61,014 bases of DNA from contig JALWUI010000112.1 of assembly GCA_027082775.1 (NCBI GenBank), positions 1 through 61,014 of the forward strand. Direction: 5' to 3'. The notes below the pieces were generated by a model. The model saw only the letters and a list, made by a program, of their open reading frames with translations. It had not been told where the DNA came from and made no database searches. Within the stretch, counting starts at the first letter, position 1. Each line of letters begins with the position of its first letter. The stretch is from Candidatus Kapaibacterium sp. Its GTDB lineage: Bacteria; Bacteroidota; Ignavibacteria; Kapaibacteriales; WFXC01. The position numbers were made by a program, and so were the translations under genes. This document shows, in pieces, positions 2,733 to 37,649 of the stretch.

Positions 2733-5700
2733 TTACTTCACAATGAGCATTTGCCGCGTCAACCGAACCGGTCCAGCACTCAGCGTGTAGAAGTATGTGC
2801 CGCTGGAGAGGACCGTGTTGCGCAGATCGAATTTCACCTGCTGCCAGCCAGCAGCAACCGTCCCTTCGTAGAGCGTTAACAGCTCACGTCCATATCCATC
2901 GCTGATGGTCAGCTTCACATATGTTGCTTTCGGTACATAGAACCGAATGACCGTTCGCGTCTCAAATGGATTCGGATTGTTCTGTTCCAGAATAAATCCA
3001 CTGGCTGAACTTCGCTCGTCAACCGCCACATTCGGATTGAAGACGATCGTTACCGTATCAGACACAACCTCGCCACATTCGCCTGTGATCACACACCAGT
3101 ATTGCCCTTCAACGCCTGACTGTCCGAAGAGCGGTAACTCTGGCGATGTAGCACCACTGATCGGTTGTCCATCTTTGTACCATTGATATGTCAGCGTGCC
3201 TTCACCCTCTGCAGCAACTCGAATCGTATCCCGCTCATTTACAGTCAGCACCGTATCATCTGACAATGTTGGTTGCTGGGTAATAACGGTTTCTTTCTTC
3301 AGCGAAACCGTTACCGTTTCGCTGGTCGTCACGCCACATTCATTTGCAATTTCCACCCAATAATCTCCAGCATCGCTCATTGTTGCAGAGGTCGTCACTT
3401 CCAGCGTTGCGCTGGTTGCTCCCGTTATCGGCTGCCCATCTTTGTACCACTGATACGTCAGCGTTGGATCATTCGGGTCATCCACTGCAACATCCAGCGC
3501 TACAGCCTCACCCGGACAGACACTCTGCGACTGCGGTTGCGTTGCGATAACCGGTGCTGTCTTAACGGTAAGATGCGCATTCGCAGAATTAACCGTCACG
3601 CCATTGACGATGTCGGTAATCTCCACATAGTAATCCCCTTCGTCAGCAGTTGTGACGTTGGTCAGCGTCAGCGTAGCCGCTGTTGCGCCTGCAATTGGAC
3701 TGCCGTCCTTGTACCACTGGTACGTCAGGATTGCATTAGGTGCGATGGAATGTGCCTGCACGGTAAAGGTCACATCGCTGCCTTCGCATACCGTCGTATC
3801 CTGAGGCTGCTGGGTGATTTCAATATCCGGAATCAGAATGGTGATGGATCCACGATCTGAGGTAGCATCACCACACTCCGCACTGACGACCACATAGTAG
3901 TCATTCCCAACATCTGCCTGGGTCACGTTGCGGATCGTCAGGACATTGGATTGTGATCCGGTAATTCGTCCATCATCTTGCAACGGCGTATTTCCACGAT
4001 ACCACTGGAAGGTAGCCGTTGCCAGATCCTGTGCGTTCGTATTCGCCCGGAACACCACCGTTTCACCCGGGAACACCACGTGATTCTTCGGATCTGCCAG
4101 CGAAACCTGCGTCGGCGGATTGACGAACACCTTCGCTACCGCAGAGGCAACAGGACCGCAATAGCCGGTGACCTCACACCAGTAATCCCCGCTATGTCCA
4201 TACGTTGCAGGCGAAATGGTCAGGATTCGACCCGTTGCGCCTGGGAGCGGCACACCGTCTTTGTACCACTGGTATTGCAGATCCGTCTGTCCCGTTGGCG
4301 GCGTTCCTGTCGCTTCCACTTCTAACTGGAAGGTACCGCCAACACATACGCCAACATCCTCCGGTTGTTTTGTGATCGACACCGGCGTGTGCACGGTCAA
4401 CTGTGCCGGATTAGAAGTCACTGCTGGATCACAAACACCAGAGACAATAACCCGATAGTATCCTTCATCACTGTATTGAGCACTGGCAAGCGTAAAGGTT
4501 GCAGCATTCGCCCCTTGAATATCCTGCCATGTCTGTCCATCTGCACTGTACTGCCACTGGTACATAATGCCGGTACCACTGGCGACAACAGAAAAGCTTA
4601 CCTGATCACCCAAGCAGACTACCTGACTGGCCGGATGCTGGGAAATCCGTGGTTTCGTGTTGACTGTCAACACTATGGAACTGGTAACATTTGGCGGACA
4701 GTAGCCAGAAACGACAACCTGATACTCGCCTGCCTGACTCGGCGTGATAGCCGGAAGATTCAGGGTAGCGCCCATACCCACCAACTGTCCATCTTTGTAC
4801 CATTCATAAGACAGGTCGTCTCCGGTTGCGGTCGCCGTAAGGACCACATCTGTTCCTTCGCAAATCTCGGTATTTGGATCGGCTGTCACCGCTGTAATCA
4901 CAGGTGGATATTTCACCGTCAACGTAGCCTGTGCTGTTGCTACTCCACACGTTCCGGTAACCTTCACTTCGTACGTACCTTCGTCAGCATCCGTAACATT
5001 TTGCAATGTAATCGTATTCACACCCGAAGCGATCAAATTCCCATCCTTATACCACTCATAATCAATGCCTGTGCCGGTCGCCAGCGCTGTAAAGGTAACG
5101 TCAGCGCCAACACAGACGACCTGCGATACCGGTGGCTGTTGAATCACCGGCGGTTGATTCACAACCACAGCTACTGTATTCGAGGTTGCCGGCTGATTAC
5201 AGATATTGGACACCACCACAAAGTAGAATCCTTCATCCGCTTCCTGAGCGTTCAGCTTCGTATAGGTACTCTGCGTTGCGCCCGGAATGGCAACCGCATT
5301 CCCCTGCCCGTCATACTTGTACCATTGGTAAGTCAATCCTGTACCCACAGCCTGCACACTTAACGTAAAGCTCTGTCCTGCGCACACCGCCACTCCCTGC
5401 GGTTGTTCCGTAATCTCTGGCAATGCATAGAAGTCCAGGCGTGCCGGATTGGTATAGACCGTTCCACACGGCGTCGTATACGCCGCACGGTAATAATTGC
5501 CATCATCTGTCGGTTGCGCTGTGACGGTCAACGTGTTGGTCTGGGATCCACTGATATGCCCCGGTGCATCGACCAAATCCGTCCACGTAGCACCCCCATC
5601 CGTGCTCACCTGCCACTGCACACTGAGCGGCGTCTGCGGCGTTCCTACCTGTGCACTGGCAGTATATACCGCATCATCACCAGCACAGACGGTCAGATTC

Positions 5701-8700
5701 TGCGGATGGGTCAGATTCTCTGCCAGCGTGTAAATCGTCACGGTGACGCCCTGCGAAACATCCGTACCGCAGACATTGCTATACACAACCCGATACTGGT
5801 ACTGGTTAATCGTGCGATCGACATTTGTCAGCGTCAGCGTCGGATTGGTTTCTCCAACCAGGTCTGTCCACGTAGCACCACCATCGGTGCTCACCTGCCA
5901 CTGCGCCTGCGGTGCTGGCTGACCACTGGCTTGACTGGTGATAACAATGTCTGTCCCTTCACACGCCGGTGCTGGCGTCTGCGGCTGTTGCGTAATAACC
6001 GGCGCTGTATTGACAGTCACTTGCGCCGAATTCGAAATTGCCGGCTGATTACAAATGTTCGATACGATGACTCGGTAGTATCCTGCATCGCTGGTTGCTG
6101 CGCTATTTACACTATACGTCGAGTTAGTTGCTCCCGTAATATCTACCCACGTCACATTGTCACTGGAGTACTGCCATTGATATGTCAGTCCCGTACCACT
6201 TGCCTGTACACTCAGCGTGAACGGATCGCCCTCGCAAATGGTCACATCCTGCGGATGCTGCGTAATGTCAGGCAATGCATAGAAATTCAATGTCGCTGCA
6301 TTGCTGAAGACATCACCACACTGCGTTGTAAACTTCGCCCGATACTGATTGCCATCGTCACTTTGCTGAGCAGTAACCGTCAGGGTAGAAGTTCCGGAGC
6401 CACTAATGTGCCCTGCAACATCGCTCAGATCTGTCCAGCTCGTTCCATTATCAGTACTCACCTGCCACCGTATCGTAAGCACTGTCTGCGGCGTTCCCAC
6501 TTGTGCCGTTGCGGTAAAGACTGCATCATCACCAGCACAAACAGTCTGATCAGAGGGATGCGTCAGATTTTCTGCCAATGTGTAGACGGTCAGCGTAACG
6601 GCATTGGACGTTACCGTTCCACACGCATTGGTCCATTCAACTCGATATTGATACTGATTCAAACTCCGGGTTACACCGGTCAACATTAACGAAGCGGTAT
6701 TTGCCCCTGCAATTGCTGTCCAGCTTGCTCCTGCATCAGTGCTTACATACCACTGCGCAGTCGGTGCTGGATCTCCAGTTGCCTGACTACTGAAGGTTAC
6801 CGTTCCATTCTCACAAACACTTTGATCCGTTGGCTGCTGGGTGATCGTCGGCGCACTCTGCACGGTCACCACCACCTGATCACTGGCGGTACAGCCTTTG
6901 CTGTCCGTTACCGTTACCGTGTAGGTATACGTCCCGGCTGCATTCAATGTCACCGTCGGATTCGCCGCCGTCGGATCACTTAACCCGGTCGTCGGACTCC
7001 AGTTGTACGTGTATGGCGCTGTCCCACCACTGGCGGTCGGATTGCCACCTAAGGTTGCTGTCGCCCCAGCACAGATTGTTACATCTTGCCCCGCATCCGC
7101 CACCGGGTTCGGATTGACCGTTACCACCACCTGATCACTGGCGGTACACCCTTTGCTGTCCGTTACCGTCACTGTGTAAGTGTATGTCCCGGCTGCATTC
7201 AATGTCACCGTCGGATTTGCCGCTGTCGGATCATTCAACCCGGTCGTCGGACTCCAGTTGTACGTGTATGGCGCTGTCCCACCACTGGCGGTTGGATTGC
7301 CACCCAAAGTCGTACTTCCACCCTCGCATATCTCCTGATCCAACCCCGCATCCGCCACCGGGTTCGGATTGACCGTTACCACCGTCGTCGTCGCGCTGGT
7401 ACATCCATTTGCATCTTCAACAAAAACATAATAGGTGTGTGTTCCAACAGATGGGGAAGTCGTCAAACTGGTCCCTGTTCCTAAAACAGGTCCCTGGTCA
7501 TTACCTAAGTACCACGTAATTGCATACGGCGAAGTGCCGCCAGTAACGGTAACCGACAGCGTCGTACTACTCCCATCGCAGATCTCTGTTGAGTTAAAAG
7601 CAGCCGTTAATACCGGAGCATCATATGCTGTTACGGTTACCGTTGCAGTACTGGTCCCACATCCATTCCACAACACAACTTCGTAAACAGCCTGACCGGG
7701 ACTAGTCACATCAATGGTCAGCGTTTGCGTATACTGTCCCGTAAAATTCCACAAAGTTCCAGTCACCTGCGACCACGTGACCGTCTGGAAATTAATTCCT
7801 CCCACGGACAACTGTACCTGCGTATCTCCATAGAAGCATAAGAACTCATCCTGCGGTGCAGACGTGATCTCTGGTGGAGCTGTGACTGTAAGACTGGTAC
7901 TACCGCTGATAACAGTCGCACAGGCATTACTCGCTACAATCCGATAGATGTAGTCACCATCTCCGGTTTGCACATTGTACAGGGTAAAGTTCACCGTTCC
8001 CGGAGAAGTTGTCAATGTCGTGGTTGCCACATCATTCCACGGACCAGACGGTGTTGCAATATCCTGCCGTTGCAACGTAAAAGTGATGGGAGCTGTACCT
8101 GTATAATTGGAACTAAACGTTGCATCCTGTCCGACACACACATCGGGATCGACTGGATCGGTCAACGTTGGATTGAACCACACGGTTAATTGTGCAGAAT
8201 TCGACGTCGCCGTTGCCCATGTGGAGCTGACTTCACAGCGATAGAATCCCGCATCGTTCCCATCGATGGCTGTCAGCGTCAAGGTTGCAGCCGTTGCGTT
8301 CGCAATGTTACTCCACGTCGTTCCATTCGCTGAGTACTGCCATTGATAGGTATACGGACCGCCAATGGTTCCCACGGAAAAGGTTACATCATTTCCTTCA
8401 CATTCCGTCACATCCTGTGGCTGCTGCGTAATCGTGGGAAGTCCAATCAGTCGGCTGGTCGGCTGCTGCAAGCCGAAGTTGCTGGGGGTACAGTTGGAAC
8501 TACAGTAAGTTAAACTAATGGGTGTCTGGTTTGGCTCCTTATGGGCAACAGCAGAAGCGCTGATATTGAATTGCAACTGATCTAATTGCGTCCCTCCTCC
8601 ACTTTTAATTCCCCACCGATAGGTTGCAATATACACAGTTCCGGTTGTTGGTCCAGGATTAAAGAAGAAGTTCGATGGGGTAATATTAATTGAAACCGTA

Positions 8701-9029
8701 TTGATCCCGTTAAAAGTCTGTGTCATTGGTATATAATCCCCCGAATTGTATTCGGGATTCGGATTATACGGAGTGTTGAAGGTACTACCATCCAGCGCTG
8801 CCGAGTTAAAATCTATAAACAGGTTTGCTCCATATAATCGCAGCGGATTATTGGCGTCCGGGATAGTCATCCACAATTCAGCATAGTATACTCCATTATC
8901 CGCCCACCGCTTGCCAATGAAAAATTCCACCCGATTATTCCCATAAGCTGCTGTAGTCTCCATAAACAAATACACAAACACACTCGTGCACATCACAGCA
9001 AGTTGTGACAGGGTCATCATCCGTTTCAT
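2733..9029 (-). CDS. 2098-aa secreted Ig-repeat surface protein with T9SS type-A C-terminal sorting domain
   Basis: Signal peptide MKRMMTLSQLAVMCTSVFVYLFMETTAAYG. N-terminal cohesin-like module (..LYGANLFIDFNSAALDGS..). Roughly 20 I-set-like Ig repeats (C..G..V.F.V...G..L.YQW......W..I.GAT..T..L......D.G.Y) and two 85-aa PKD/SprB-like repeats. The last 89 aa (nt 2736-3002), FILEQNNPNPFETRTVIRF...SSGTYFYTL...RQMLIVK, fit the Por/T9SS CTD pattern. Confidence 0.9.
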   Translation of the reverse strand: MKRMMTLSQLAVMCTSVFVYLFMETTAAYGNNRVEFFIGKRWADNGVYYAELWMTIPDANNPLRLYGANLFIDFNSAALDGSTFNTPYNPNPEYNSGDYIPMTQTFNGINTVSINITPSNFFFNPGPTTGTVYIATYRWGIKSGGGTQLDQLQFNISASAVAHKEPNQTPISLTYCSSNCTPSNFGLQQPTSRLIGLPTITQQPQDVTECEGNDVTFSVGTIGGPYTYQWQYSANGTTWSNIANATAATLTLTAIDGNDAGFYRCEVSSTWATATSNSAQLTVWFNPTLTDPVDPDVCVGQDATFSSNYTGTAPITFTLQRQDIATPSGPWNDVATTTLTTSPGTVNFTLYNVQTGDGDYIYRIVASNACATVISGSTSLTVTAPPEITSAPQDEFLCFYGDTQVQLSVGGINFQTVTWSQVTGTLWNFTGQYTQTLTIDVTSPGQAVYEVVLWNGCGTSTATVTVTAYDAPVLTAAFNSTEICDGSSTTLSVTVTGGTSPYAITWYLGNDQGPVLGTGTSLTTSPSVGTHTYYVFVEDANGCTSATTTVVTVNPNPVADAGLDQEICEGGSTTLGGNPTASGGTAPYTYNWSPTTGLNDPTAANPTVTLNAAGTYTYTVTVTDSKGCTASDQVVVTVNPNPVADAGQDVTICAGATATLGGNPTASGGTAPYTYNWSPTTGLSDPTAANPTVTLNAAGTYTYTVTVTDSKGCTASDQVVVTVQSAPTITQQPTDQSVCENGTVTFSSQATGDPAPTAQWYVSTDAGASWTAIAGANTASLMLTGVTRSLNQYQYRVEWTNACGTVTSNAVTLTVYTLAENLTHPSDQTVCAGDDAVFTATAQVGTPQTVLTIRWQVSTDNGTSWTDLSDVAGHISGSGTSTLTVTAQQSDDGNQYRAKFTTQCGDVFSNAATLNFYALPDITQHPQDVTICEGDPFTLSVQASGTGLTYQWQYSSDNVTWVDITGATNSTYSVNSAATSDAGYYRVIVSNICNQPAISNSAQVTVNTAPVITQQPQTPAPACEGTDIVITSQASGQPAPQAQWQVSTDGGATWTDLVGETNPTLTLTNVDRTINQYQYRVVYSNVCGTDVSQGVTVTIYTLAENLTHPQNLTVCAGDDAVYTASAQVGTPQTPLSVQWQVSTDGGATWTDLVDAPGHISGSQTNTLTVTAQPTDDGNYYRAAYTTPCGTVYTNPARLDFYALPEITEQPQGVAVCAGQSFTLSVQAVGTGLTYQWYKYDGQGNAVAIPGATQSTYTKLNAQEADEGFYFVVVSNICNQPATSNTVAVVVNQPPVIQQPPVSQVVCVGADVTFTALATGTGIDYEWYKDGNLIASGVNTITLQNVTDADEGTYEVKVTGTCGVATAQATLTVKYPPVITAVTADPNTEICEGTDVVLTATATGDDLSYEWYKDGQLVGMGATLNLPAITPSQAGEYQVVVSGYCPPNVTSSIVLTVNTKPRISQHPASQVVCLGDQVSFSVVASGTGIMYQWQYSADGQTWQDIQGANAATFTLASAQYSDEGYYRVIVSGVCDPAVTSNPAQLTVHTPVSITKQPEDVGVCVGGTFQLEVEATGTPPTGQTDLQYQWYKDGVPLPGATGRILTISPATYGHSGDYWCEVTGYCGPVASAVAKVFVNPPTQVSLADPKNHVVFPGETVVFRANTNAQDLATATFQWYRGNTPLQDDGRITGSQSNVLTIRNVTQADVGNDYYVVVSAECGDATSDRGSITILIPDIEITQQPQDTTVCEGSDVTFTVQAHSIAPNAILTYQWYKDGSPIAGATAATLTLTNVTTADEGDYYVEITDIVNGVTVNSANAHLTVKTAPVIATQPQSQSVCPGEAVALDVAVDDPNDPTLTYQWYKDGQPITGATSATLEVTTSATMSDAGDYWVEIANECGVTTSETVTVSLKKETVITQQPTLSDDTVLTVNERDTIRVAAEGEGTLTYQWYKDGQPISGATSPELPLFGQSGVEGQYWCVITGECGEVVSDTVTIVFNPNVAVDERSSASGFILEQNNPNPFETRTVIRFYVPKATYVKLTISDGYGRELLTLYEGTVAAGWQQVKFDLRNTVLSSGTYFYTLSAGPVRLTRQMLIVK
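6866..7375. repeat. 255-nt tandem duplication inside the 2098-aa gene (two PKD/SprB-like domains)
   Basis: The motif CCGCATCCGCCACCGGGTTCGGATTGACCGTTACCACC starts at 7091 and 7346 (period 255 nt = 85 codons). About 190 nt of each unit are nearly identical and about 45 nt are divergent. Confidence 0.85.
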
Positions 9030-23800: not shown

Positions 23801-26800
23801 TTGAGCTCAGGCTATGTCCACTGGTGGTCGACACCGTAAAGGTTGTCGTCACATCGGTGTTCCAGGCATTATCCAGTGCCACGGTAATCGTCGCAGCCGA
23901 CGTATTCGCAGCAATCGTTGCTACGGTACTTCCACTGAATTTAGTCAGCGCCGGATGATTCCAACTCAACTCAATATTCGTATTCACCGGCACTGGGACC
24001 TGTACATCAGCCGAGTTCACCGAAATGACATTTACATTGAAGGTCTGGCGATTGTAAATGGTCGCCGGTGTCACGCTGGCAACCTTCAGTTTGGATGGAT
24101 ATGAGTACACCGTAATGGTTGCCTGTGTTGACGCCAATCCTGTCCCCGACAGGGTCAGGGTAACCGTCGTTGAAGCGGATTCTGTATAGGTCAACGTCAC
24201 ACTCAACGTCGTAATTGCATCGGGATCATCTTTCTGGAAGACAAAGGAATTGGGTGATACCGTCACGCCCGGATAGCTGGAGGTGATATTGATAACGGTA
24301 TTGGCACTGGTTGCCCGCAGATCTGCATCGGGACTAAAGGTAGCAGCAGTGATGGTAAATGGCGTACCGGAAATAGCAGTTGCTGGCAATCCATCCCGCT
24401 CATTCGGACTGGTATCATCCCACGCCAGATTCGTTGCTGGCTTCGCGTAGAAGGGCACTGTCAACGTCGTAGAGTATGGATAGTTTCCTACGGAAGACGC
24501 CGTCACCGTGACCGTTCCCATCGTTGCTGGGCCAGTGTAACCGAAGGTCATTGTCGCTTCAACATAGTTATTGCCTGCGGTCAGCGTCGTTGACGCCGGC
24601 GTTGCGCTGAATCCAGCACTGATCGCTGCGGATGGTCCATAGGTAAAGGCAATGACCGCATCGGCAGTTGTGGAGCGCAACTCACCGAACATACTGAACG
24701 ATCCAGTGGTCACCGTAAACGGCTGATCTTCCATAATCGGATTTGGATAGGTATCGAATCCATCCGTACCGAACGAGGAAGTCGAACTATACGCCAGACG
24801 CACTGCCGGACCAGTAATCGTGATTGAAATGGTAGTCGACACAGGATATCCTGGTGCCGACGCCGTAACCGTTGCAACCGTATTAGCAGGCGTTCCGAAG
24901 TAACGGAATTCCAGATTAGAGCTCACCTGATACGTGTTGATTGCAAGCTGTGCGGTGGTACTACTTCCCCATACACCGCCCGATTGCCGCACCTGAACAC
25001 CGGCATTGACACTGATCGTTACATTAACAGTGCCAGAAGTTTCACGGAACCAGTCATCCGGACTGAAGGAGCTAACCGTCACCGGCACGGGAGTTCCTTC
25101 AGTCACTGTCAGGTTTCCACCATTAAATCCAGAGGTAGCGCTGGTATTGCCATTATCCACACTGAATGCCAGCTTCGTTGGTTCCTTCGGATTGAAGTTT
25201 ACCGTGACATTGGTGCTGTATGGATAGTTGACGCTGGCAGCCGTGACAATTACATTGAACGGATCATTTTCAGCACCGCTATAATTGAGCGTAAAGTTGC
25301 CAGTCGTATGAGTTGCCCCAGCATTCAACGCTATCGTATTTGGCACAATGGATACACCTGCCACATCGACGGTTAAGTTCACCGTGGTATTTGCTGTTGT
25401 AGCACGCAGGTGACCAAAGGCACTCCACGAACCGACCGTCACCGGGAAGGCAACACCTTCGTTTGCACTGAGCGATCCACCGTTGAATCCATTGATTCCC
25501 GTGGAACTGGTGGTTGAATACGCCAACCGGACTGCCGGATCCGGCTGGACGGTAATCGTTGCTTGCGTTGTGGATCCAATCGCTGGAGCCGTGGCGGTCA
25601 GCGTCGTCGCAACTGCTGCTGTACCTGTTCCTGTATAGATCACCGTAATGGAATGATTCGTAACTGCCGTATTGGCATAAATTGTCCCGACCGCTCCTGC
25701 ATAGATCATAAACGGTCCGGTTACACTGTAATTCACCGTCAAATTCGCTGTTGTTTCACGCAGGTTTCCATCGACCGAGAATGTTCCATTTGTCACCGTA
25801 AAGGCAACGCCCGAATTCACCGTTCCTGATGGAACCCCATCAGTTCCTGTTGTGCTGGTTGTACTATAGGCAATAATCGAAGCAGGTTTGCCAACAACGG
25901 TCACATTGATGGAAGTTGCTGTTAGCACATTGCCGGCTGCCGAAGCCGTAAGGGTAATAACAACCGATGGTGCAACCCCAGTGTAATCAAATTCAATATT
26001 TGCCGTACTGGAGAACGTATTCGCTACGATCGTCATCGTGGTGCTGGAGCCAAACACTCCGCCATTGGCTCTAAGCGTTACCGCAGGATCCGAACTGGTC
26101 AGTGTTATGGTAACATCTGCATTGGTAGAACGTAAGTATCCTTCAGCACTAAACGTTCCAATGGTCACCGAAACGGGAGAATTCTCATTCACTGTTAAGT
26201 TTCCTCCGTTAAATCCATTGGTTGCTGTTGATGCTGTCGTCGAAAATGCCAGATGCCGTGCTGGCGTCGGCGTAACCTGAATCGTAATGGAAGTCGCCAC
26301 TAACGACGGATTAGATACCACCACCGTCACTGTTGTTGCTTGCGCCGATGTACCAATGTACTCAATGATGATTGAATTCGTAGTTGATGCTGCTCCAGCA
26401 TACAACGTAACATCCTGCGTTGCCTGCAAGCTGGACCCAACTTTAAATCGGAAATTCGAAGCTTCCGGACCGCTGTAAGAAAACGTCAACGTCGTCGTTG
26501 CATTGGTCGCCACAAGGTTTCCACCCAGGCTGAAGGTTCCAACAGTAACCGTAACGGGCTGCCCGGACACAATGCCGGTTGTCACGCCACCATTAAAGCC
26601 TTCGATTGCCGTCGCAGAAGTTACCGAGTACGCCAAGGAATGAGCGGGACCCGGCGTTCCTAAGGTAAAGTACATCGGGGAGGCAAACAATCCCGTCAAC
26701 GTGCCTTCTACATAATTGTATGCACCAGAACTTCCGCGAACAAGATCAATCGAATGCCGCTCAGTCCAGTTGATTCCATCGGAACTGGTGTAGAATACCA

Positions 26801-29800
26801 GCGTTGTAGGATCCAGAGAATTCAGATGATCGGACAAGTAACTGATCCGCACTTTTTCAACGATTCCGCTCTGGCCCGTACTTACCTTATATATCCGAAC
26901 AATGCTGGTCGTCAGCGGCGAAACACTCAGCGTTGTGGACACCGGAATCAAATCGACTTCAATGGGTCCAACCAACGCACTATTGCCAAAGTCAATGCCC
27001 AGTCCTGCTGGACCCGGTGTATCAAGCGTTGCGTTAATAGTCAGGGACGTAGCGTGGACCGTTGCAGTTGTGTTGCCGCCGGTGTTCACAACAACTGATC
27101 CTGTCGTCTCTGCCAGGGTTCCACCAGCACCCAGCTCTAAGTTGTTGTTATTCAGATCCAGATTCGCACTCCCGCTGGTGACATATACCGTTCCACTGGC
27201 CAACGTTACATTACCTCCGAGGGTTACGCCACCACTATTCGCGACATACACATTGCCATTCGGATCGGCACCCCACTCACCACCGGTGGTATGTGCCGCC
27301 GTTCCCTGGTACCACAGATCTACGCCACTACCGTAGGTCGGTGTCCCATTAATTGTGGGGTCATTGATGATGTAGAAATCCGTGTTATTCTGGAAGTTGA
27401 GATTGTTGGCGTTATTCAACGTTATAGTTCCACCACTTTCCTCTACAACCGCCCGTGTGTGGATATTGACCGCATTGGTTAAACTCACTGTGCTGTTAGC
27501 ACTGAAATGATCGCGAATTTCGAACGCTCCTAAATTATTCAGTGCTGGATCAAAGCCGAATGTGACTGAACCATTCGTCCCATAGAAAATCAATGTTGAA
27601 GTTGTCACCCCTGCTGCTCCACCAAACGCTCCAGTACCAGCAGTGACAATAGTACCATACACGTGAAGTGTTTCCTTCATTCTCAACGTTCCATCATTCA
27701 AAGTGAGCGTTCCACTGGTTGCCAGCGTCAACGTATTGACCGTCACAATCTGCGATGCAGAGCTCACTGTCAAATTTAGTAGATGCTGTCCAGTGAAGTT
27801 AAAGTCGCCACTGATGGTTGCGGCATAGATGTGGAGTGATGAGGTTTCCGATCCTTTGTAGTTTCCACCGGTATTCGTAATAGTTCCCCCGGTTGCAACT
27901 GTGAGCGCATGATTCGGTGCAATATGAACGGTTCCAGCCGCATTGAGCAATGTCCCGTTCACCGTCACAGTAGCAACGGTCGCTATTTCCCCTGTGCGAT
28001 TCATTGTGAAGTTCCCAAGATTCTGATCTCCCTGGAATGCAAAAGTTCCCGAAATAGAAGCATTCCCTGCAATCGTCAGATCCGATGCCGGATCCCCCAT
28101 AAATGGCTGTGCCACGCTCAGCGTGATTGGACCATTTAACGTCAGATCATAGCTATTCAGATCCAGATATCCAGCGGAAACGGTAAAGCTACCATCAATG
28201 TCTTTTGCTCCGGTCAAATCAGCAGTCAGCACCACTCCTCCACTATTGCTCACAAAGAAGTTGTACGGCGCATTGGTAGCGGCATTCTCCAGTTCCGGTG
28301 TCGACGTCCGCTGGGTACTTCCCGCATACCACAGCGTCGATGTTGGACCATAGGTAATCTGTGAAGCGTTAGTAGCAATCTGGGCATTATCCCAGATTGT
28401 CCAGGTGTTATACAATGTCATCTGGAAGCCATCACCGAGCCCAAAGGTAAAGCTATTTGCCGTAACCGTACAGTTCGTCACCGACAGTGCTGCACCTGTG
28501 ACGGTCAGAGATCCAGTACCACCATTAAGATTGAGTGTCAACGTACCGATCGTGGCTGCTGCCGCAGCAAAGTCGATTGATGTTGAGCCGGAAGTTCCGG
28601 ACACTGCAATAGTAAGATCCGAAGAAGCACTCCCAGCGAAATCAGCATTAGCGACATCAAAGCTGAAAATCCCACCAGAATTTTGAATCGTCAAATGATT
28701 GCCATTCAAATCAAATGTTCCGGCCACAAATTGTGTTGCCGAACTCACCAAGGTTAAATCGCTGCACAAATAGACGGTCTGCCCCGGCCGATTCACCGTA
28801 ATATGGTGGAGCGTCTGATATCCTGCATCAAAATTCAAATAAACATCGCCAGCAGCGCCCTGCAAAACTTCAATCCACGCTGATGCAGATCCCCGCAACT
28901 TACCACCTGCCGAGCACGTCAGCGTTGTCCCATAGAGCGTTAGCGGTGAACCAATCGCCAAGGTTCCCTGCTTCAGGGACAACGTTCCGCTCGTCCCAAT
29001 TGCCAAATTCGACGCTGTAATATTCACATTCCGATCCAGCTCAAAGGTTTTGAGAATCGAACCGGATACAAAATCAAACTGTCCATTGACGGCACCACTT
29101 CCATTGAGAATGATTGTTCCCGCTCCCGGTGTAGAAGCGGTAAACTGCGAACCGGAAGTAATGACTACCGTACCAGACAATGTCAACGTTTCGTCATCCA
29201 CATCGACCACCGCCGAAGCATTCGTGACAACAAAACTCCCTGTAATAGTCGGCGAAGTTGTCAACTGCCAGTTACCTGGAACATCCACGGTCAAACTCCC
29301 GCTGATGGCTGTTGGCAGACCATCCCCGCTGATCTGCCCCGAAGCCCCATTGTAGACATAATGAGCAGCCCCATTAAAATTCCGTGCTCCTGTTTGCACA
29401 CTCCCTGTATTGCTGCTACTACTGATCCCCTGGGGATTAGCTGTCTTCAATGTCGCTCCGGAGTACAGATTAAAGGTACCGCCAGCCCCACTGAAAATAT
29501 TGCTTGCATCAAAAATGATCGTCCCATATACGTGAATAATACCACCATTGACATTATACGAAGTTGCCAGAGTTACATCCGATCCGCTTTGTACGGTCAT
29601 ACTCCCCTGAATGGTTGCTGGCAATCCTGAAGTGTTCTGCCCTGTACCGGTGAAATAGTAATGCCCATCGGATGCCAGCGTAATAGTGTTGGTATTGATA
29701 TTCCCCGCTGCTCCTGTCACCTGTGTAGCCGAAATGTAGAGATGTCCTCCTGGGTCCAGAATAAAAGTTCCCGTTCCTGTAACCTGTTTCGCTCCAGCAA

Positions 29801-30527
29801 ACTTCAACACGCCGGAAGCCAGAACCTGGAATTGGTCGGGGCTATTAACCTGGATATCCATATTCAGCGTTAACTCTCCCCCGCCTGCTACAATGACATC
29901 CACACCTGAGCCACCATTCCCTACTGTCAGCGTTCCTGTAGAAACCAGGGTTACCTGGGCACCCACATTGATAAGCAACTTTCCAATAGTTGTCGTTGGG
30001 ACATTGGTCACCGTAACAGGAGCACCTGCCGGGAACAATGCTCCTTCTGACACATTATCGGGCACATTCCCACCCTGCCAGTTTGCAGGATCGGTCCAGC
30101 TCTTTGTACCTCCCCCACCAATCCACTGAATCATCGTTTGGGCATACCCCTCCTGTGGATACAACAGCACGCCCACAAGACAGGCTACCGTGGCAACTCT
30201 CCCGATAATCCGGAAATCAACAGCATCTGCGGCACGATCAACGACTTGCCATACCTGGACCACGATTCTCAGCAATTGTGCCCATAGTCGTTGCAATACG
30301 GTCATCTTACCCTGTACTCCCTTTGTTTCTATTTCTGTATTTTTTTTCGAGGTTCTGGAATGGACAGTCCACTGGCTCCGGAATGGGGTTGTGTGCAGCA
30401 CGGATTGGTTTCGACTGGAAGGTTGCTCAGGTCGAAATGCTAATTGATTTGATACAGAAGCCGTATCAATTCCCATAACCCCATCCTTCACCGTTTGTTC
30501 GACTTGTCTGCTGTTGCATCCTGCCAC
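11814..30527 (-). CDS. giant (up to 6237 aa) secreted adhesin-like protein: beta-helix-like N-terminal region, more than 40 Ig-like domains, dockerin-like C-terminal module; true start probably ATG 30305
   Basis: A single uninterrupted 18.7-kb ORF. Met75 (ATG 30303-30305) is preceded by an A-rich leader and followed by MTVLQRLWAQLLRIVVQVWQVVDRAADAVDFRIIGRVATVACLVGVLLYPQEGYAQ. G/T/N-rich passenger-like repeats run to about nt 26640. After that come arrays of ~100-120-aa Ig-like domains (..QDQYGN...V.LS....G.L.G....A.NGVATF..L...KAGTYTL.A). The last 217 aa (11817-12467) carry VDWVVVELRD...HRNHL...TDVTLDGIVNAADRI. No T9SS CTD pattern at the C-terminus. Confidence 0.9.
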   Translation of the reverse strand: MAGCNSRQVEQTVKDGVMGIDTASVSNQLAFRPEQPSSRNQSVLHTTPFRSQWTVHSRTSKKNTEIETKGVQGKMTVLQRLWAQLLRIVVQVWQVVDRAADAVDFRIIGRVATVACLVGVLLYPQEGYAQTMIQWIGGGGTKSWTDPANWQGGNVPDNVSEGALFPAGAPVTVTNVPTTTIGKLLINVGAQVTLVSTGTLTVGNGGSGVDVIVAGGGELTLNMDIQVNSPDQFQVLASGVLKFAGAKQVTGTGTFILDPGGHLYISATQVTGAAGNINTNTITLASDGHYYFTGTGQNTSGLPATIQGSMTVQSGSDVTLATSYNVNGGIIHVYGTIIFDASNIFSGAGGTFNLYSGATLKTANPQGISSSSNTGSVQTGARNFNGAAHYVYNGASGQISGDGLPTAISGSLTVDVPGNWQLTTSPTITGSFVVTNASAVVDVDDETLTLSGTVVITSGSQFTASTPGAGTIILNGSGAVNGQFDFVSGSILKTFELDRNVNITASNLAIGTSGTLSLKQGTLAIGSPLTLYGTTLTCSAGGKLRGSASAWIEVLQGAAGDVYLNFDAGYQTLHHITVNRPGQTVYLCSDLTLVSSATQFVAGTFDLNGNHLTIQNSGGIFSFDVANADFAGSASSDLTIAVSGTSGSTSIDFAAAAATIGTLTLNLNGGTGSLTVTGAALSVTNCTVTANSFTFGLGDGFQMTLYNTWTIWDNAQIATNASQITYGPTSTLWYAGSTQRTSTPELENAATNAPYNFFVSNSGGVVLTADLTGAKDIDGSFTVSAGYLDLNSYDLTLNGPITLSVAQPFMGDPASDLTIAGNASISGTFAFQGDQNLGNFTMNRTGEIATVATVTVNGTLLNAAGTVHIAPNHALTVATGGTITNTGGNYKGSETSSLHIYAATISGDFNFTGQHLLNLTVSSASQIVTVNTLTLATSGTLTLNDGTLRMKETLHVYGTIVTAGTGAFGGAAGVTTSTLIFYGTNGSVTFGFDPALNNLGAFEIRDHFSANSTVSLTNAVNIHTRAVVEESGGTITLNNANNLNFQNNTDFYIINDPTINGTPTYGSGVDLWYQGTAAHTTGGEWGADPNGNVYVANSGGVTLGGNVTLASGTVYVTSGSANLDLNNNNLELGAGGTLAETTGSVVVNTGGNTTATVHATSLTINATLDTPGPAGLGIDFGNSALVGPIEVDLIPVSTTLSVSPLTTSIVRIYKVSTGQSGIVEKVRISYLSDHLNSLDPTTLVFYTSSDGINWTERHSIDLVRGSSGAYNYVEGTLTGLFASPMYFTLGTPGPAHSLAYSVTSATAIEGFNGGVTTGIVSGQPVTVTVGTFSLGGNLVATNATTTLTFSYSGPEASNFRFKVGSSLQATQDVTLYAGAASTTNSIIIEYIGTSAQATTVTVVVSNPSLVATSITIQVTPTPARHLAFSTTASTATNGFNGGNLTVNENSPVSVTIGTFSAEGYLRSTNADVTITLTSSDPAVTLRANGGVFGSSTTMTIVANTFSSTANIEFDYTGVAPSVVITLTASAAGNVLTATSINVTVVGKPASIIAYSTTSTTGTDGVPSGTVNSGVAFTVTNGTFSVDGNLRETTANLTVNYSVTGPFMIYAGAVGTIYANTAVTNHSITVIYTGTGTAAVATTLTATAPAIGSTTQATITVQPDPAVRLAYSTTSSTGINGFNGGSLSANEGVAFPVTVGSWSAFGHLRATTANTTVNLTVDVAGVSIVPNTIALNAGATHTTGNFTLNYSGAENDPFNVIVTAASVNYPYSTNVTVNFNPKEPTKLAFSVDNGNTSATSGFNGGNLTVTEGTPVPVTVSSFSPDDWFRETSGTVNVTISVNAGVQVRQSGGVWGSSTTAQLAINTYQVSSNLEFRYFGTPANTVATVTASAPGYPVSTTISITITGPAVRLAYSSTSSFGTDGFDTYPNPIMEDQPFTVTTGSFSMFGELRSTTADAVIAFTYGPSAAISAGFSATPASTTLTAGNNYVEATMTFGYTGPATMGTVTVTASSVGNYPYSTTLTVPFYAKPATNLAWDDTSPNERDGLPATAISGTPFTITAATFSPDADLRATSANTVINITSSYPGVTVSPNSFVFQKDDPDAITTLSVTLTYTESASTTVTLTLSGTGLASTQATITVYSYPSKLKVASVTPATIYNRQTFNVNVISVNSADVQVPVPVNTNIELSWNHPALTKFSGSTVATIAANTSAATITVALDNAWNTDVTTTFTVSTTSGHSLSSTTTTITIKAAPIKLAFTSITTQVIRNQAFSFDFETWNSANLKTGVTAATVVGVTSNTGVTIVGTTLANLAIGNSSGTISNIKLTYVGNTSTVATLTLAVQSGPVLAITSVNITVLPYDPNALANGVARYGFKTASPPVTNATAGAVLTRNGVDPVAVQCLDTFGNVILSYNGDVYITIGSDGSACPGDPNTVLKDYSTTATGTIIKSAVNGVATFATLHIDVGDIDGVPYTLYAYHPSNLIAPTTSTQFLIFSSTATAIAFWSQPPASTSAGLVFSGMKATCATGATIENTGTNLVVQLVDQYGNPTSGVTTVVQLSIYSQSATPGNPDNVPGYFVTTGTLTTSTLSVIMDAGSGRATFANVRIDRAGIYRLKADAGLTYGSAISNAFEITPTTASTLRFVSQPTTSAIGNVVQGTNASYGNVVAVEALDQWGNRVTNQNIVVNLTTTAALTFVNNSVGTGTSGIAIFNTMRIINGAPGTYQLKATSGSTTLLTGFAVYSDPFILEGAADRLAFSTTSPTGIDGFNGGNTTVTGQVPFPVNFGLFNNAGTLTATTANTTVALSLTITDPGLSLYGIGGPGSTTATVVAQYTATGTTQATISWTGSTNTTATLTLSVISAGTALQSTSVTLTIKPNKPADRLAFSTSAVGTVNPYDQSGVKASTPQISRKPFMVYFQTLNPDLYPTATTATGTQVQFSVVGSGGNPVPGLTLLSPTSPITLSNANTLYSTAVTIAWDPSVCNQNTTATLILSVSSGGSLLETRATITLKPFHSVATQLDFIQDPNNITAGGNLGTVKVAVKDAYGNIRCDFVGTVNISVVTSSSLLAPCNDGILSGTLSQPVVNGVATFNDLSMTRAGTYYLRAEDNAAVLTPATSALFTVSPASAVKLAFYSQPPSVTTAGYVFSNMEARCTNNNALIENTGTNLVVQFQDQYGNLNPTVNGNVTLSINTYTPNVAGLYSSSGTISTVLSQGGIATFANVRLLKAGIYTLRASVGGLISDAISNSFTVVPDVPDHLSFIQQPTDNYCEGVFSPAPVVAVWDQWDNRATNANITEIYMYSTTPSMTILPPTTASFNTGDATGTFTNLRVNAPWGYYQLEARITNPSLFVTSASFLLSTSPIVSAASFTVQPTTSCTGGAMAPFEVTLYDNCTNVSTTNGSVYAFASGGALLNGSSQISVNAVNGVAVFSGVTFTAPLAGYYTITATHANILGATISTTSNAFLIDVDHIAYTSTPPSSCTIDNLVFEVSFYDACNNPLASTGTVYITITGAGGYGPTVFSGSTVASVNAKVNVSLSATTSGWYTAVATFANVVGTVLTTTATFYINVEQIAYNPAPSTSCVGPATLNFGVDFLDACGMPINTSGTVTVTTVGPSYSNTQTFGVTATNHLSAGLSFSGVTAGTYTATATYPDLFGNVLSTSASFTIDVDHVAISAGPAGCPNGTCGTATLNFTVDVFDFCNNPIVTTSDVQIQIMGPGYSQIFTIPGGISNATRGTVSVAFSTSTAGTYTAYAAVQNLSGMWISSPAWTFVVDVQSIAYGDVPSSSCTVSSLNFDVNFYDGCNSPIETTGSVTLAITGPGYSQTVVHPFVSVTTTTVPVSFSGSTSGIYTAVANFSNSCGTPFTTTTTFYVNVESIAFNPAPSTTCVGMPTTLPFTVDFKDYCGNPINTTGTLQVQITGPSYNDVQVFTVNNESSHSDNFNFGGMTAGTYTVTATYVDLFGNNLTTTSSFIVDAVSLDPSITAVTTSCGYQLPNFTVTFRDACGNAVGTNGTVTLVTPAGVTLVPNSTDANIHTGIANFNNVTVYGPVGTYTVTAQAVSVTGATIVGTFTLTITPGDPYALKFQTQPGDGEAGNLSVGGQLSVLPVVQVIDQCGNDVSVAGATISLSLNPVSGVLHTDPALPVFSDANGEATWTGMAVEKVGTYTLTASGTYGTTLLQSTTSTAFVITHTDAYKVAFVVQPPTTIGSMSVMSPDPVVEVQDFFGNRVTTGIYASTTVTISLQGGTPGATLYTNHPGNQVTTVDGQATVTGVRVDKVGTGYWLVASASPLQPGNSDAFDVVVGPPAKLAFRAPYDATPQTFTGGQTFSPDIEVEVQDLGGNLVTTATHSITLSIASGPAGGTLTVAANPVNAVGGVATFAGVSLDKVGTYKLQVDAAGLAPATTANINIVTGPPVGLAFNTIPDGVAGEQYGTFPHPPIEVRIVDAGGNTVSTAASWITVDIWQFIPNLFSASGTPQPFTGTDTKYTASGVAQFNLTFYTAGQYILRATSATYGSTTSNVFTINPADADPTTSTVSATNTSIQVGDSEPLVITFRDPYGNLTTTGGPINVSLTGFGIILPGTSVSPAGSTTQTITPGYIAGTDLAGQPSSTATICVVGGSSCVVFTVYPGDASGPQSTIVADGSTSLIVGTATTATVYFRDQFGNPTTTGNLDLTLAGFGSVVPDPVAPTMPMAWPTMATVTYTAGTNLGGNLSSIAIVGILGGPSIVYTVYPDDADPTTSTIVADGSTSIKAGESTTATVYFRDQYGNATTTGSITLDLASFGSFAPNPVSPTAGATKATVTYTAGTNLAGNQSSTATLFIVGNIGQPNHQVVFTVYPNDADPAQSFITADGSTSIIVGTATTATVWFYDQYGNPTTTGSLNLDLFGFGSVAPNPVTPNMPMAWPTTATVTYTAGTDLAGNTSSTATVGISGGSSSVTFTIYPDVASQNTSTIAASTTDVVVGTSVDLTISFFDQYGNPSTSGNINLSIAPAGYGTLSVNPVPAAGNTQATIQYTAPNVRVNPTVTIALDPNGGQPGASVTLNIRADFPTTTASFVTATPNILVADGVSSSTLKLTLIDQYGNQLNDGDVTYHGLNTSRVQIIRSGGPAPGTLGSTVYNGDGTFGNTFVAGTVAGSYVVIGATIDGTSIIPANHAYITLIPGPASPTTSTVSPSAVTLVADGASTTAIIVTLYDDFGNQLNTGGDNVEIFIASGLGTLDDGTPGATAGVSTTASYIGNGQYRAVYTAPTSTGATIVRARVNGSLITTLGASTCTITNIAGPASTATSVVSGAPATLVVGTQTGDITIQMFDKFGNPTTNGTVTVQIVQGGGSLQPTSTGFTGSGSVITMTGVTTGTFRYTGGTNASIDAIIHVTLPAGHVQNSPITIDLIPDVADHTTSTVTGMPATVVVGQTTPPITITMRDRFGNLTTNGTVTISQIGGDGTLSITTFTGGVSASTTFTYTAGTNATLDPTINVQIGGNDIVGSPFTIDQIPDVADPAKSTVTGMPSTVVVGQTTPPITVTMRDQYGNITDNGTVTISQVGGDGTLSPTTIVGVSPATFTYTAGTDAAKDPTVSVQIGGTHIVGSPFFIDQIPDVPAQLRFIQNPTDTRSGDQFSPTVTVEVLDQYGNRNTTDVVTVNLSSSGSSFLTGNTSVNSVLGIATFTGVGICGTAGAGYTLTATSAGLTATTSTLFSILIGDPVGLVFTTQPGQVGPNIAGQPIVQQPVVSIVDCGGNTVPTTAIVKLEINTAPDPGLVGQLVSITTAVNGVASFSGVSFTKAGTYTLRAQTVGTPILPAVVSDPFVVTNASASQLAFSVNPPTETSATSTFDVEVQVQDQYGNLVPNYTTTVTLSLTAISGTGVLSADYTVTTGTGTIPFTNVNVNRPGQYYLEAAATGLNPGISTVFDVVPGPAVAAQSTITPTTATVPVGGFTTDFVVVKRDANGNLTTVGTVSVNVQTDNSGGGSTTVIDNGTTAIIRYTSGNNAGTDVYQFYAHITSPADDSDIADLVSITQTPAVPVVANVKAVLEGPFDQSSGALMHNLLNQYGFLPTTDPYGLGESVVIVPNNAVDWVVVELRDKNSKTTTVAQRAAFITTTGTITDLDGSSQVAFSSITADDYYIVIKHRNHLWIMSSSATTLNTGSSTLYDFTVSQSKAYSQSQLPMVGLPRLAPSVYGMVAGDAASTFGIINAADRVAVRNASGQTGYLVTDVTLDGIVNAADRIVPRNNAFRVTQVP
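13742..14700. repeat. about 300-350-nt periodic domain array inside the giant gene
   Basis: Domain boundaries encoding ..IDQIPDV../..IDLIPDV.. recur near 13742, 14040 and 14350, with a related boundary near 14700. Confidence 0.6.
15691..16942. repeat. 309-318-nt periodic domain array inside the giant gene
   Basis: Boundaries encoding V(F/Y)T(V/I)(Y/N)P.DA(D/S)P start at 15691, 16000, 16318, 16633 and 16942 (plus-strand GGATC(A/G)GCATC...GGATAGAC). Confidence 0.7.
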
Positions 30528-37642: not shown

Positions 37643-37649
37643 CTTTCCA

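What the first reader, a model, noticed from the sequence alone, without database searches (positions are those of the whole stretch)
2733..30527. 28-kb surface-protein island that reads like a T9SS-anchored cohesin-dockerin assembly
Four consecutive minus-strand genes (6237, ~687, 178 and 2098 aa; about 46% of the window) all begin with Sec-type signal peptides. Only the last one (2733-9029) ends in a T9SS type-A sorting domain. That protein carries one copy, and the 687-aa protein two copies, of a ~150-aa module directly after the signal peptide. The core strand of this module reads LYGANLFIDFNSAALDGS / YLTDCSIYIQFDHTKWTSP / YIDDCDFVLTYDNTHFNSP. This strongly recalls the signature strand of clostridial cohesins (CipA cohesin ..NCDFVYSYDPNVLE.., from memory). 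The three proteins without a T9SS domain all end in a module with dockerin-type Ca-loop segments (GDLNGDRNVNVSDIL; ADANNDQGVNITDVL; TDVTLDGIVNAADRI plus GIINAADRV). My inference is that the T9SS-attached 2098-aa protein is the cell-surface anchor that docks the 6237-aa fibre and the 687-aa adaptor. The adaptor has two further cohesin-like modules, which would allow branching or extension. I am not aware of a described T9SS-anchored cohesin-dockerin system built from giant Ig-repeat proteins.
Basis: partly seen in the sequence, partly recalled or inferred. Interest (0 to 1): 0.75.

Follow-up and report, generated by a model that had tools for sequence, protein, structure and literature searches.

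The report
T9SS-anchored cohesin-dockerin-like surface fibre operon
Four neighbouring genes encode giant surface proteins whose end modules fold like the cohesin and X-dockerin "plug and socket" of cellulosomes, on a stalk carrying a type IX secretion (T9SS) anchor, and the same socket-next-to-plug gene pairing recurs widely in related bacteria, which may explain many "orphan" dockerins.

Summary
Four consecutive minus-strand genes encode a giant protein (ORF 6237 aa), a 687-aa adaptor, a 178-aa protein and a 2098-aa anchor. Only the anchor ends in a T9SS type-A sorting domain.

The adaptor's N-module matches no Pfam, NCBIfam or PDB sequence. Its AlphaFold model (pLDDT 97.6) has cohesins as its top 17 PDB matches. 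The giant's C-module (pLDDT 95.2) has type-II X-module+dockerin dyads as its top 10 matches, and its family profile hits PDB dockerin sequences (E about 1e-5).

Two caveats apply. The adaptor and the 178-aa protein keep only one of the two dockerin repeats. The anchor's N-domain is only a remote relative of the N-module (hhalign 90%).

The new result is comparative. In 80 metagenomic loci, several Flavobacterium genomes and a diverged copy of the operon, genes ending in this X-dockerin module are typically followed directly by a small "N-module + T9SS sorting domain" gene.

Binding itself is untested. T9SS-anchored cohesin scaffolds were already proposed in silico (Cloacimonadota, 2021), so this is a new variant of a known kind, built on an undescribed cohesin-like family.

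The parts
11814..30527 (-). Giant fibre protein. The ORF is 6237 aa; the likely start is the ATG at 30305. Order of parts: leader/signal peptide, about 1000-aa unannotated N-terminal region, dozens of Ig-like repeats (Invasin_D3, Big_1, Filamin), C-terminal X-dockerin-like module.
11817..12479 (-). C-module of the giant (last 221 aa): beta-sandwich 'X' part plus two dockerin-type repeats (the first loop is degenerate) and a ..TQVP tail.
   Evidence: AF2 pLDDT 95.2. The Foldseek top 10 are all type-II XDoc dyads. The family profile hits PDB dockerins.
9662..11725 (-). Adaptor (687 aa): signal peptide, two cohesin-like N-modules, a Kre9/KNH-like Ig domain, an I-set Ig domain, and a C-module with a single dockerin repeat.
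11177..11656 (-). Adaptor N-module 1 (cohesin-like).
   Evidence: 98 bits against an independent family profile
10670..11176 (-). Adaptor N-module 2 (cohesin-like); this is the module that was modelled.
   Evidence: 154 bits. AF2 pLDDT 97.6. The Foldseek top 17 are all cohesins.
9665..10117 (-). Adaptor C-module: X-like beta-sandwich plus one dockerin-type loop (GDLNGDRNVNVSD) and an NPGQVPAP tail.
9104..9640 (-). 178-aa protein: a signal peptide plus a free-standing C-module with a single repeat (ADANNDQGVNITD; the C-module spans 9107-9565).
2733..9029 (-). Anchor (2098 aa): signal peptide, divergent cohesin-like N-domain, long Ig/PKD stalk, T9SS type-A sorting domain.
8442..8939 (-). Anchor N-domain, a remote relative of the N-module.
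   Evidence: 14-15 bits by hmmsearch. hhalign 90%, E 1.6e-6 over 84 columns. Conserved in the L047/L048 orthologues.
2736..2975 (-). T9SS type-A C-terminal sorting domain of the anchor.
   Evidence: Por_Secre_tail E 4e-5, 24.3 bits; TIGR04183 18.1 bits. The L048 orthologue carries a hit recorded at E <= 1e-5 and the L047 orthologue a weak hit.

Best explanation
The four genes form one operon for a cell-surface fibre that is assembled non-covalently by cohesin-dockerin-type modules and held on the outer membrane by T9SS. All proteins cross the inner membrane by Sec (inferred).

The 2098-aa protein is exported and attached to the surface through its T9SS sorting domain. It presents a divergent cohesin-like domain at the tip of an Ig/PKD stalk (domains shown; attachment inferred from what is known of type-A sorting domains).

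The single-repeat X-dockerin modules of the 687-aa adaptor and/or the 178-aa protein plug into that domain. The two canonical cohesin-like modules of the adaptor take the two-repeat X-dockerin of the roughly 6100-aa fibre. This pairing is inferred from three things: three sockets against three plugs, canonical modules pairing with canonical and divergent with divergent, and the family-wide rule that a plug gene is followed by its socket gene.

The operon is an elaborate version of a much commoner two-gene cassette: 'cargo-XDoc' followed by 'signal peptide, N-module, spacer, T9SS sorting domain'. That cassette displays varied non-enzymatic and enzymatic cargo on FCB-group bacteria (the Fibrobacteres-Chlorobi-Bacteroidetes superphylum).
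For: Fold:
- The N-module's top 17 PDB matches are all cohesins, with E from 4e-5 to about 1e-3 and TM 0.35-0.60.
- The C-module's top 10 are all type-II XDoc dyads, TM up to 0.63.

Sequence:
- The C-module profile hits 2b59_B, 5lxv_B and 2vn5_B dockerins at E about 1e-5.
- Relatives P0008, P0024, P0029 and P0033 pass Pfam Dockerin_1.

Architecture:
- Of 104 N-module proteins, 59 carry Por_Secre_tail and 17 carry CHU_C, both T9SS sorting domains.
- About 18 carry the C-module instead, like adaptor scaffoldins.
- P0044 and P0048 combine two N-modules, an Ig stalk and a T9SS sorting domain in one protein.

Gene context:
- The four-gene order is conserved in a diverged lineage, loci L047-L049.
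- L053 holds two above-threshold Pfam Cohesin + T9SS-sorting-domain proteins, a cohesin-like + C-module protein and an N-module + Por_Secre_tail protein side by side.
- In four Flavobacterium genomes a protein of more than 4000 aa ending in the C-module is directly followed by a signal-peptide protein whose N-terminal domain looks cohesin-like by eye. It is followed by an Ig stalk and T9SS sorting domain in the one complete copy. Only that L008 copy scores against the N-module profile (20.7 bits), and none hits Pfam.
- In 80 metagenomic loci, 74 C-module genes have enough downstream DNA to judge. The next gene is an N-module gene in 16, another small T9SS-sorting-domain protein in 17, and another C-module gene in 13.
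- Against other ORFs of the same loci the odds ratios are 6.2 (p 4e-9) for a sorting domain and 7.5 (p 8e-7) for the N-module.
- All 10 downstream N-module proteins tested pass Por_Secre_tail.
Against:
- No cohesin sequence signal exists for the N-module, and CBM3 modules, which share the fold, follow the cohesins closely in the Foldseek list.
- The anchor's N-domain was not modelled and is only a remote relative.
- The adaptor and the 178-aa protein have half a dockerin, whose fold and binding competence are unknown.
- The first Ca loop of the giant is degenerate.
- The three proteins without a T9SS sorting domain have no recognisable way across the outer membrane of a diderm cell, which a simple 'dock on the surface' model leaves unexplained.
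- 27 of the 74 C-module genes have no recognisable partner gene next to them.
Confidence: 0.6

Rival explanations
1. The modules do not bind each other. The N-module is a CBM3-like or adhesive tip domain of T9SS surface proteins. The C-module is a Ca-stabilised C-terminal domain with another partner, such as LPS, a glycan or a different receptor. Adjacency then only reflects co-regulated surface proteins.
For: CBM3 modules share the fold and appear with E about 1e-3 to 5e-3 in the Foldseek list. There is no cohesin sequence homology. T9SS substrates are generally enriched in these loci, with 60 of 309 large ORFs carrying a sorting domain.
Against: Every one of the top 17 structural matches is a cohesin. 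The enrichment of N-module/sorting-domain genes directly after C-module genes holds against the same-locus background. N-module + C-module fusions and Pfam-Cohesin + C-module fusions exist. The socket-to-plug count of 3:3 is conserved in the diverged operon.
Confidence: 0.2
2. The C-module is mainly an export or sorting signal. It would be a further class of C-terminal signal that gets cargo lacking a T9SS sorting domain across the outer membrane on its own, not a docking plug.
For: It always sits at the extreme C-terminus with a conserved ..Q[VI]P tail. It is mutually exclusive with T9SS sorting domains in otherwise similar architectures. Its carriers have no other outer-membrane export signal.
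Against: Its fold and profile match XDoc/dockerin, not T9SS sorting domains. Clostridial dockerins also end in a ..FP[VA]-type tail (from my own knowledge). This reading does not explain the dedicated partner gene that follows.
Confidence: 0.12
3. Chance resemblance or an assembly artefact of repetitive Ig genes.
For: Repeat-rich genes do assemble poorly: a close relative has an N-run inside the anchor gene, and anchor lengths differ (2098 vs 2013 aa).
Against: The same four genes occur on at least six independent contigs and in a diverged lineage. Both models are very confident.
Confidence: 0.01

Closest known systems
Cellulosomal cohesin-dockerin systems, especially the type-II cohesin / X-module-dockerin pair that anchors CipA (C. 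thermocellum) and ScaA (A. cellulolyticus)
   Same: Both have a beta-jelly-roll socket and an X-sandwich plus duplicated F-hand plug at the C-terminus. Both have adaptor proteins carrying sockets and a plug together, and a dedicated cell-surface anchoring protein. These are the best structural matches.
   Different: The organism is a diderm FCB bacterium. The anchor is a T9SS sorting domain rather than SLH or sortase. The socket has no detectable sequence homology to Pfam Cohesin. Cargo is giant Ig fibres, FG-GAP, lectin and deacetylase proteins, not a cellulase set. Most cassettes are 1:1 gene pairs rather than multi-cohesin scaffoldins. Two plugs in this window have a single repeat.
Predicted cellulosome-like complex of Ca. 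Stygibacter (Cloacimonadota), with a tandem-cohesin scaffoldin carrying a T9SS-type sorting domain (PMC8542988, 2021)
   Same: In-silico proposal of a cohesin scaffold attached through a T9SS C-terminal domain, with signal-peptide proteins carrying C-terminal dockerins, in the FCB group.
   Different: That system uses InterPro-detectable cohesins and dockerins on hydrolases and a 3755-aa multi-cohesin/CBM scaffoldin. Here the socket is an unannotated family, the cargo is a fibre, and the rule is a plug gene followed by a socket gene.
Chlorochromatium Cag_2037 / Cag_2038 (bioRxiv 10.64898/2026.03.19.712371)
   Same: Neighbouring giant bacterial-Ig-repeat proteins in the FCB group, one with an N-terminal cohesin and one with a C-terminal dockerin, inferred to pair (AF3 model).
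   Different: The cohesin protein there is an RTX/T1SS substrate with an alginate-lyase-like domain. There is no T9SS anchor, no adaptor and no X-module dyad.
Non-cellulosomal cohesin- and dockerin-like modules (Peer et al. 2009; A. fulgidus cohesin 2xdh; C. perfringens cohesins 2vo8 and 2jh2)
   Same: Cohesin and dockerin folds used outside cellulose degradation; these structures are among the top matches.
   Different: Those are detectable by sequence profiles. Many dockerins outside Firmicutes had no known partner, and the N-module family offers a candidate partner.
T9SS type-A cargo anchoring (C-terminal sorting domain cleaved by PorU and linked to A-LPS)
   Same: The anchor and the small N-module proteins end in Por_Secre_tail domains.
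   Different: Here a sorting-domain protein would act as a receptor for cargo that lacks one. I found no description of that for T9SS.

Membership tests
Cohesin (Pfam PF00963) | Significant match to the Cohesin sequence profile | tested here: not met
   No hit at E <= 10 for any of the three N-modules. The 73-sequence family profile finds no cohesin among PDB sequences. hhalign against four FCB-group cohesin domains (two above the Pfam Cohesin cut-off, two cohesin-like) gives 0.1% probability. No Cohesin match appears among the 25 Pfam families shown (of 39 found) for the 104 family members scanned.
Cohesin (Pfam PF00963) | Nine-stranded beta-jelly-roll fold superimposable on solved cohesins | tested here: met
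   Adaptor module 2: pLDDT 97.6, nine strands. The Foldseek top 17 are all cohesins, probability 1.00, TM 0.35-0.60; CBM3 follows. Not modelled for module 1 or for the anchor domain.
Cohesin (Pfam PF00963) | Encoded with, or fused to, dockerin-bearing partners | tested here: met
Cohesin (Pfam PF00963) | Binds a dockerin, Ca2+-dependent on the dockerin side | not testable with these tools
   No multimer prediction or experiment was available.
Dockerin / type-II X-dockerin dyad (Pfam PF00404) | Match of the window's own proteins to the Dockerin_1 profile above the curated cut-off | tested here: not met
   Adaptor 13.8 bits, giant 8.8 bits, 178-aa protein no hit; the cut-off is 22.9.
Dockerin / type-II X-dockerin dyad (Pfam PF00404) | Family-level sequence homology to known dockerins | tested here: met
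   The 49-sequence profile hits 2b59_B (1.4e-5), 5lxv_B, 2vn5_B, 1daq and about 30 other dockerin chains. P0008, P0024, P0029 and P0033 pass Dockerin_1.
Dockerin / type-II X-dockerin dyad (Pfam PF00404) | Two tandem F-hand repeats with DxNxDGxIxxxD loops | tested here: inconclusive
   The giant has two repeats, the second near-canonical (DVTLDGIVNAAD) and the first degenerate. The adaptor and the 178-aa protein have one canonical loop and lack the second repeat.
Dockerin / type-II X-dockerin dyad (Pfam PF00404) | X-module beta-sandwich packed against a two-helix dockerin | tested here: met
   Giant C-module: pLDDT 95.2. The Foldseek top 10 are all XDoc dyads (4u3s_B, 2b59_B, 4fl4, 3kcp, 5m0y_B, 5g5d_B, 5k39_B).
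T9SS type-A sorting domain (TIGR04183 / PF18962) | Profile match at the extreme C-terminus | tested here: inconclusive
   Anchor residues 2019-2093 of 2098: 24.3 bits against 27, and 18.1 against 23, with E 4e-5 and 2e-3. The L048 orthologue carries a hit recorded at E <= 1e-5 and the L047 orthologue a weak hit. The motif ..NPNPF..GTYFY..MLIVK is visible in the sequence.
T9SS type-A sorting domain (TIGR04183 / PF18962) | T9SS machinery (SprA, PorU/V, GldKLMN) present in the genome | not testable with these tools
   None of these genes lies in the 61-kb window, and the genome could not be identified.

The most novel reading that the evidence does not exclude
The cohesin-like/X-dockerin pairing is a secretion device as well as a surface tether. 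Cargo that has only a Sec signal (including the roughly 6100-aa fibre) would bind, in the periplasm, the N-module of its dedicated partner bearing a T9SS sorting domain. It would then be carried through the T9SS translocon as a hitchhiker and end up displayed on the A-LPS-anchored partner. This would explain three things: why each plug gene is followed by its own small socket + sorting-domain gene, why plug and sorting domain are mutually exclusive, and how 'orphan dockerin' proteins of FCB bacteria leave the cell.
Probability: 0.2. Interest if true: 0.9.

Novelty: new variant of a known kind. Interest (0 to 1): 0.72.

Why it matters
Dockerin-bearing proteins are common in Bacteroidota and relatives, yet recognisable cohesins are rare there, so their partners have been unclear. 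This locus points to an unannotated family (109 clusters at 50% identity) with a cohesin fold. It is usually fused to a T9SS sorting domain and sits directly after X-dockerin genes.

If the pairing is real, it defines a general, modular way for T9SS bacteria to display cargo that lacks a sorting domain, from deacetylases to 6000-residue fibres. It would also supply a new orthogonal plug-and-socket pair for protein engineering. It raises the question of how such cargo crosses the outer membrane.

The pair also occurs in Flavobacterium genome records that are not labelled as MAGs, which would make the question open to experiment.

Tried and rejected
- **Pfam and NCBIfam on whole proteins and isolated modules.** No Cohesin hit and only sub-threshold Dockerin_1.
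- **Word-indexed homologue searches.** The search with the adaptor N-modules and the one with the anchor N-domain both returned nothing. The exhaustive profile search was needed.
- **Profile searches of PDB sequences.** The N-module alignments found no cohesin.
- **hhalign of the N-module family against four FCB-group cohesin domains (two above the Pfam cut-off, two cohesin-like).** No similarity, so I do not file the N-module as a Cohesin family member.
- **Genome-contig scan with the adaptor.** It matched only Ig domains and no close relative, so the organism stays unidentified. It did, by luck, bring in the Flavobacterium loci.
- **The search for related loci with alignments A5 and A6.** Both were too diverse to use.
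- **Organism name from cluster members.** None was available.
- **C-module as a T9SS-sorting-domain-like fold.** The Foldseek list shows XDoc, not sorting domains.
- **N-module as a CBM3.** Kept as a rival, since CBM3 ranks below all the cohesins.
- **Literature searches for a description of this cassette or for T9SS hitchhiking.** None found.
Full report
**1. The observation.** The minus strand carries four consecutive ORFs at 11814-30527, 9662-11770, 9104-9640 and 2733-9029.
- The 702-aa ORF is a 687-aa protein from the ATG at 11725, as called in relatives.
- The giant ORF most likely starts at the ATG at 30305. That gives a 56-aa leader whose second hydrophobic stretch ends in GYA|QT.
- Signal peptides were judged by eye, since no predictor was available.
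- Only the 2098-aa protein has a T9SS sorting domain, and it is slightly below the curated cut-offs (24.3 bits against 27, and 18.1 against 23; E 4e-5 and 2e-3).
- The rest of that protein is an Ig/PKD stalk. The giant is mostly Invasin_D3/Big_1/Filamin-type repeats with an unannotated N-terminal region of about 1000 aa.

**2. Sequence-profile tests of 'cohesin' and 'dockerin'.**
- None of the three N-modules hits Pfam Cohesin even at E <= 10.
- Dockerin_1 is weak: 13.8 bits over 16 residues for the adaptor and 8.8 bits for the giant.
- NCBIfam adds nothing.

**3. The two module families.**
- The C-terminal modules of the three proteins without a sorting domain are homologous (59% and 33% identity).
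- A profile search found 38 relatives, several of which pass Dockerin_1.
- The family is a beta-sandwich, followed usually by two DxNxDGxIxxxD repeats and a terminal ..Q[VI]P. The adaptor/178-aa lineage has lost the second repeat.
- A 49-sequence profile hits PDB dockerin sequences significantly: CipA XDoc 2b59_B at 1.4e-5, 5lxv_B, 2vn5_B, 1daq and others.
- The N-module found nothing in the word-indexed database. The exhaustive search gave 109 representative clusters.
- Of 104 of these scanned, 59 carry Por_Secre_tail and 17 CHU_C. Only 2 pass Dockerin_1, and no Cohesin match appears among the 25 families shown. About 18 carry the C-module at their C-terminus in place of a T9SS sorting domain.
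- Some proteins (P0044, P0048) combine two N-modules, an Ig stalk and a T9SS sorting domain.
- Against a profile built without window sequences, the adaptor modules score 154 and 98 bits and the anchor domain about 15 bits. hhalign of the anchor-domain alignment from three lineages against the family gives 90%, E 1.6e-6, over the first 84 columns.

**4. Structures.**
- Adaptor module 2, with a 73-sequence alignment, gave pLDDT 97.6 and pTM 0.91, with nine strands.
- Its 17 best PDB matches are all cohesins: R. flavefaciens ScaC, A. fulgidus 2xdh, C. thermocellum 2ccl/1ohz/1aoh and C. perfringens. E runs from 4e-5 to about 1e-3 and TM from 0.35 to 0.60, with CBM3 modules next.
- The giant's C-module gave pLDDT 95.2.
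- Its 10 best matches are all type-II X-module+dockerin dyads (4u3s_B, 2b59_B, 4fl4, 3kcp, 5m0y_B, 5g5d_B, 5k39_B; TM up to 0.63), followed by a sharp drop.
- So the socket is cohesin-like by fold only. A profile-profile comparison with four FCB-group cohesin domains (two above the Pfam cut-off, two cohesin-like) is negative.
- The plug is an XDoc by both fold and family-level sequence.

**5. Gene context.**
- The order giant, adaptor, small protein, anchor recurs on six contigs of close relatives.
- It also recurs in a diverged lineage (the small protein's C-module is about 44% identical to the adaptor's) with the same three sockets and three plugs.
- In L053, four genes sit side by side:
  - two proteins with above-threshold Pfam Cohesin directly followed by a T9SS sorting domain;
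  - a cohesin-like + C-module protein;
  - an N-module + Por_Secre_tail protein.
- In L050, an N-module fragment followed by a Por_Secre_tail ORF lies between two C-module genes.
- In four Flavobacterium genomes, a protein of more than 4000 aa ending in the C-module is followed within tens of bases by a signal-peptide protein. Its N-terminal domain looks cohesin-like by eye, and the one complete copy (L008) continues into an Ig stalk and a T9SS sorting domain. Only the L008 copy scores against the N-module profile (20.7 bits), and none hits Pfam.
- A metagenome scan found at least 530 C-module stretches.
- In the 80 loci fetched, 74 C-module genes have at least 1.3 kb downstream. The next gene encodes:

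| Next gene | Count |
|---|---|
| N-module | 16 |
| another small protein with a T9SS sorting domain | 17 |
| another C-module gene | 13 |
| cohesin + C-module | 1 |
| nothing recognisable | 27 |

- Against other ORFs of the same loci, the odds ratios are 6.2 (p 4e-9) for a sorting domain and 7.5 (p 8e-7) for the N-module.
- All ten downstream N-module proteins tested pass Por_Secre_tail at 30.6-53.7 bits.
- The unrecognised partners have N-domains with cohesin-style strand motifs and hhalign probabilities up to 85%.
- Cargo is diverse: FG-GAP/ASPIC, beta-propeller, Laminin_G_3, polysaccharide deacetylase and unknown, plus a cupredoxin.

**6. Mechanism.**
- Shown: the folds, the dockerin homology, the T9SS sorting domains on socket proteins, fusions of socket and plug, and conserved plug-then-socket gene order.
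- Inferred: that plug binds socket; that the anchor is attached by T9SS; and the specific wiring.
- For the wiring, I propose that the adaptor's canonical sockets take the giant's two-repeat XDoc. The divergent anchor socket would take the divergent single-repeat plugs of the adaptor and/or the 178-aa protein. The 178-aa protein could then cap or compete for a socket.
- One open problem remains. The three proteins without a sorting domain have no evident route across the outer membrane. This motivates the piggyback reading given as the novel case.

**7. Comparison and novelty.**
- The system works like a type-II cohesin/XDoc anchoring system, but the socket fails the sequence definition of Cohesin.
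- A T9SS-sorting-domain scaffoldin with canonical cohesins was proposed in silico for Ca. Stygibacter (PMC8542988).
- A cohesin/dockerin pair on neighbouring giant Ig-repeat proteins was reported for Chlorochromatium (bioRxiv 10.64898/2026.03.19.712371).
- Dockerins in Bacteroidetes are known (PMC6487960).
- I found no description of the N-module family, of the plug-gene/socket-gene cassette, or of T9SS hitchhiking.
- Hence: a new variant of a known kind.

**8. Organism.** It was not identified. The window also encodes FliM and FliL, a haem-copper oxidase and multihaem cytochromes. A T9SS substrate in a flagellated bacterium points to a non-Bacteroidia member of the FCB group; this is an inference.

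Noticed in passing
window 40493-45589 (+): A 1698-aa protein with a C-terminal Peptidase_S74 domain (intramolecular chaperone of endosialidase/tailspike type) and an ice-binding-like beta-roll. This is a tail-fibre-like architecture in a chromosomal context.
   Followed up: no
window 57421-59028 (-): fliM and fliL flagellar genes lie in the same window as a T9SS substrate. The organism is therefore a flagellated FCB-group bacterium, not a typical gliding Bacteroidia.
   Followed up: partly
window 32461-32620 and 37570-37643 (+): A tRNA-Gly(GCC)/tRNA-Val(CAC) pair and a tRNA-Ala(CGC). The tRNA-Ala overlaps the mechanical start of the FGE-sulfatase/PKD ORF at 37566, so that gene must start further downstream.
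   Followed up: no
window 37566-40128 (+); L051/L052 8402-9967: An FGE-sulfatase-domain protein lies beside a multihaem cytochrome in the window. In a Flavobacteriales MAG, an FGE-sulfatase protein sits immediately upstream of a C-module (XDoc) gene. This may be coincidence.
   Followed up: no
L001 about 12500-12700; L002 6888-12929: A close relative's assembly has a run of N inside the anchor gene, and anchor length differs between near-identical strains (2098 vs 2013 aa). This suggests copy-number variation or mis-assembly of near-identical Ig/PKD repeats.
   Followed up: no
L060, L080, L089 (contig Ga0256832_1000002, about 270-316 kb): One 414-kb metagenomic contig, from the same JGI sample as a relative of the window, carries a run of C-module (XDoc) genes in tandem arrays: 3, 4 and 4 in three partly overlapping loci. 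So some genomes hold large plug repertoires.
   Followed up: partly
P0018 (296 aa), P0009/P0017: The XDoc module is also fused to a plastocyanin-like cupredoxin (P0018) and to a cohesin-like domain (P0009: Pfam Cohesin E 0.003, sub-threshold; P0017: no Pfam hit). The latter pair are self-contained 'socket + plug' proteins.
   Followed up: partly
window 10670-11656 and 8442-8939 (method note): The word-indexed protein search returned nothing for the N-modules, not even the window's own proteins. The exhaustive HMMER search found 109 clusters. Negative results from the indexed search are unreliable for this low-complexity, Asn/Thr/Ser-rich family.
   Followed up: yes
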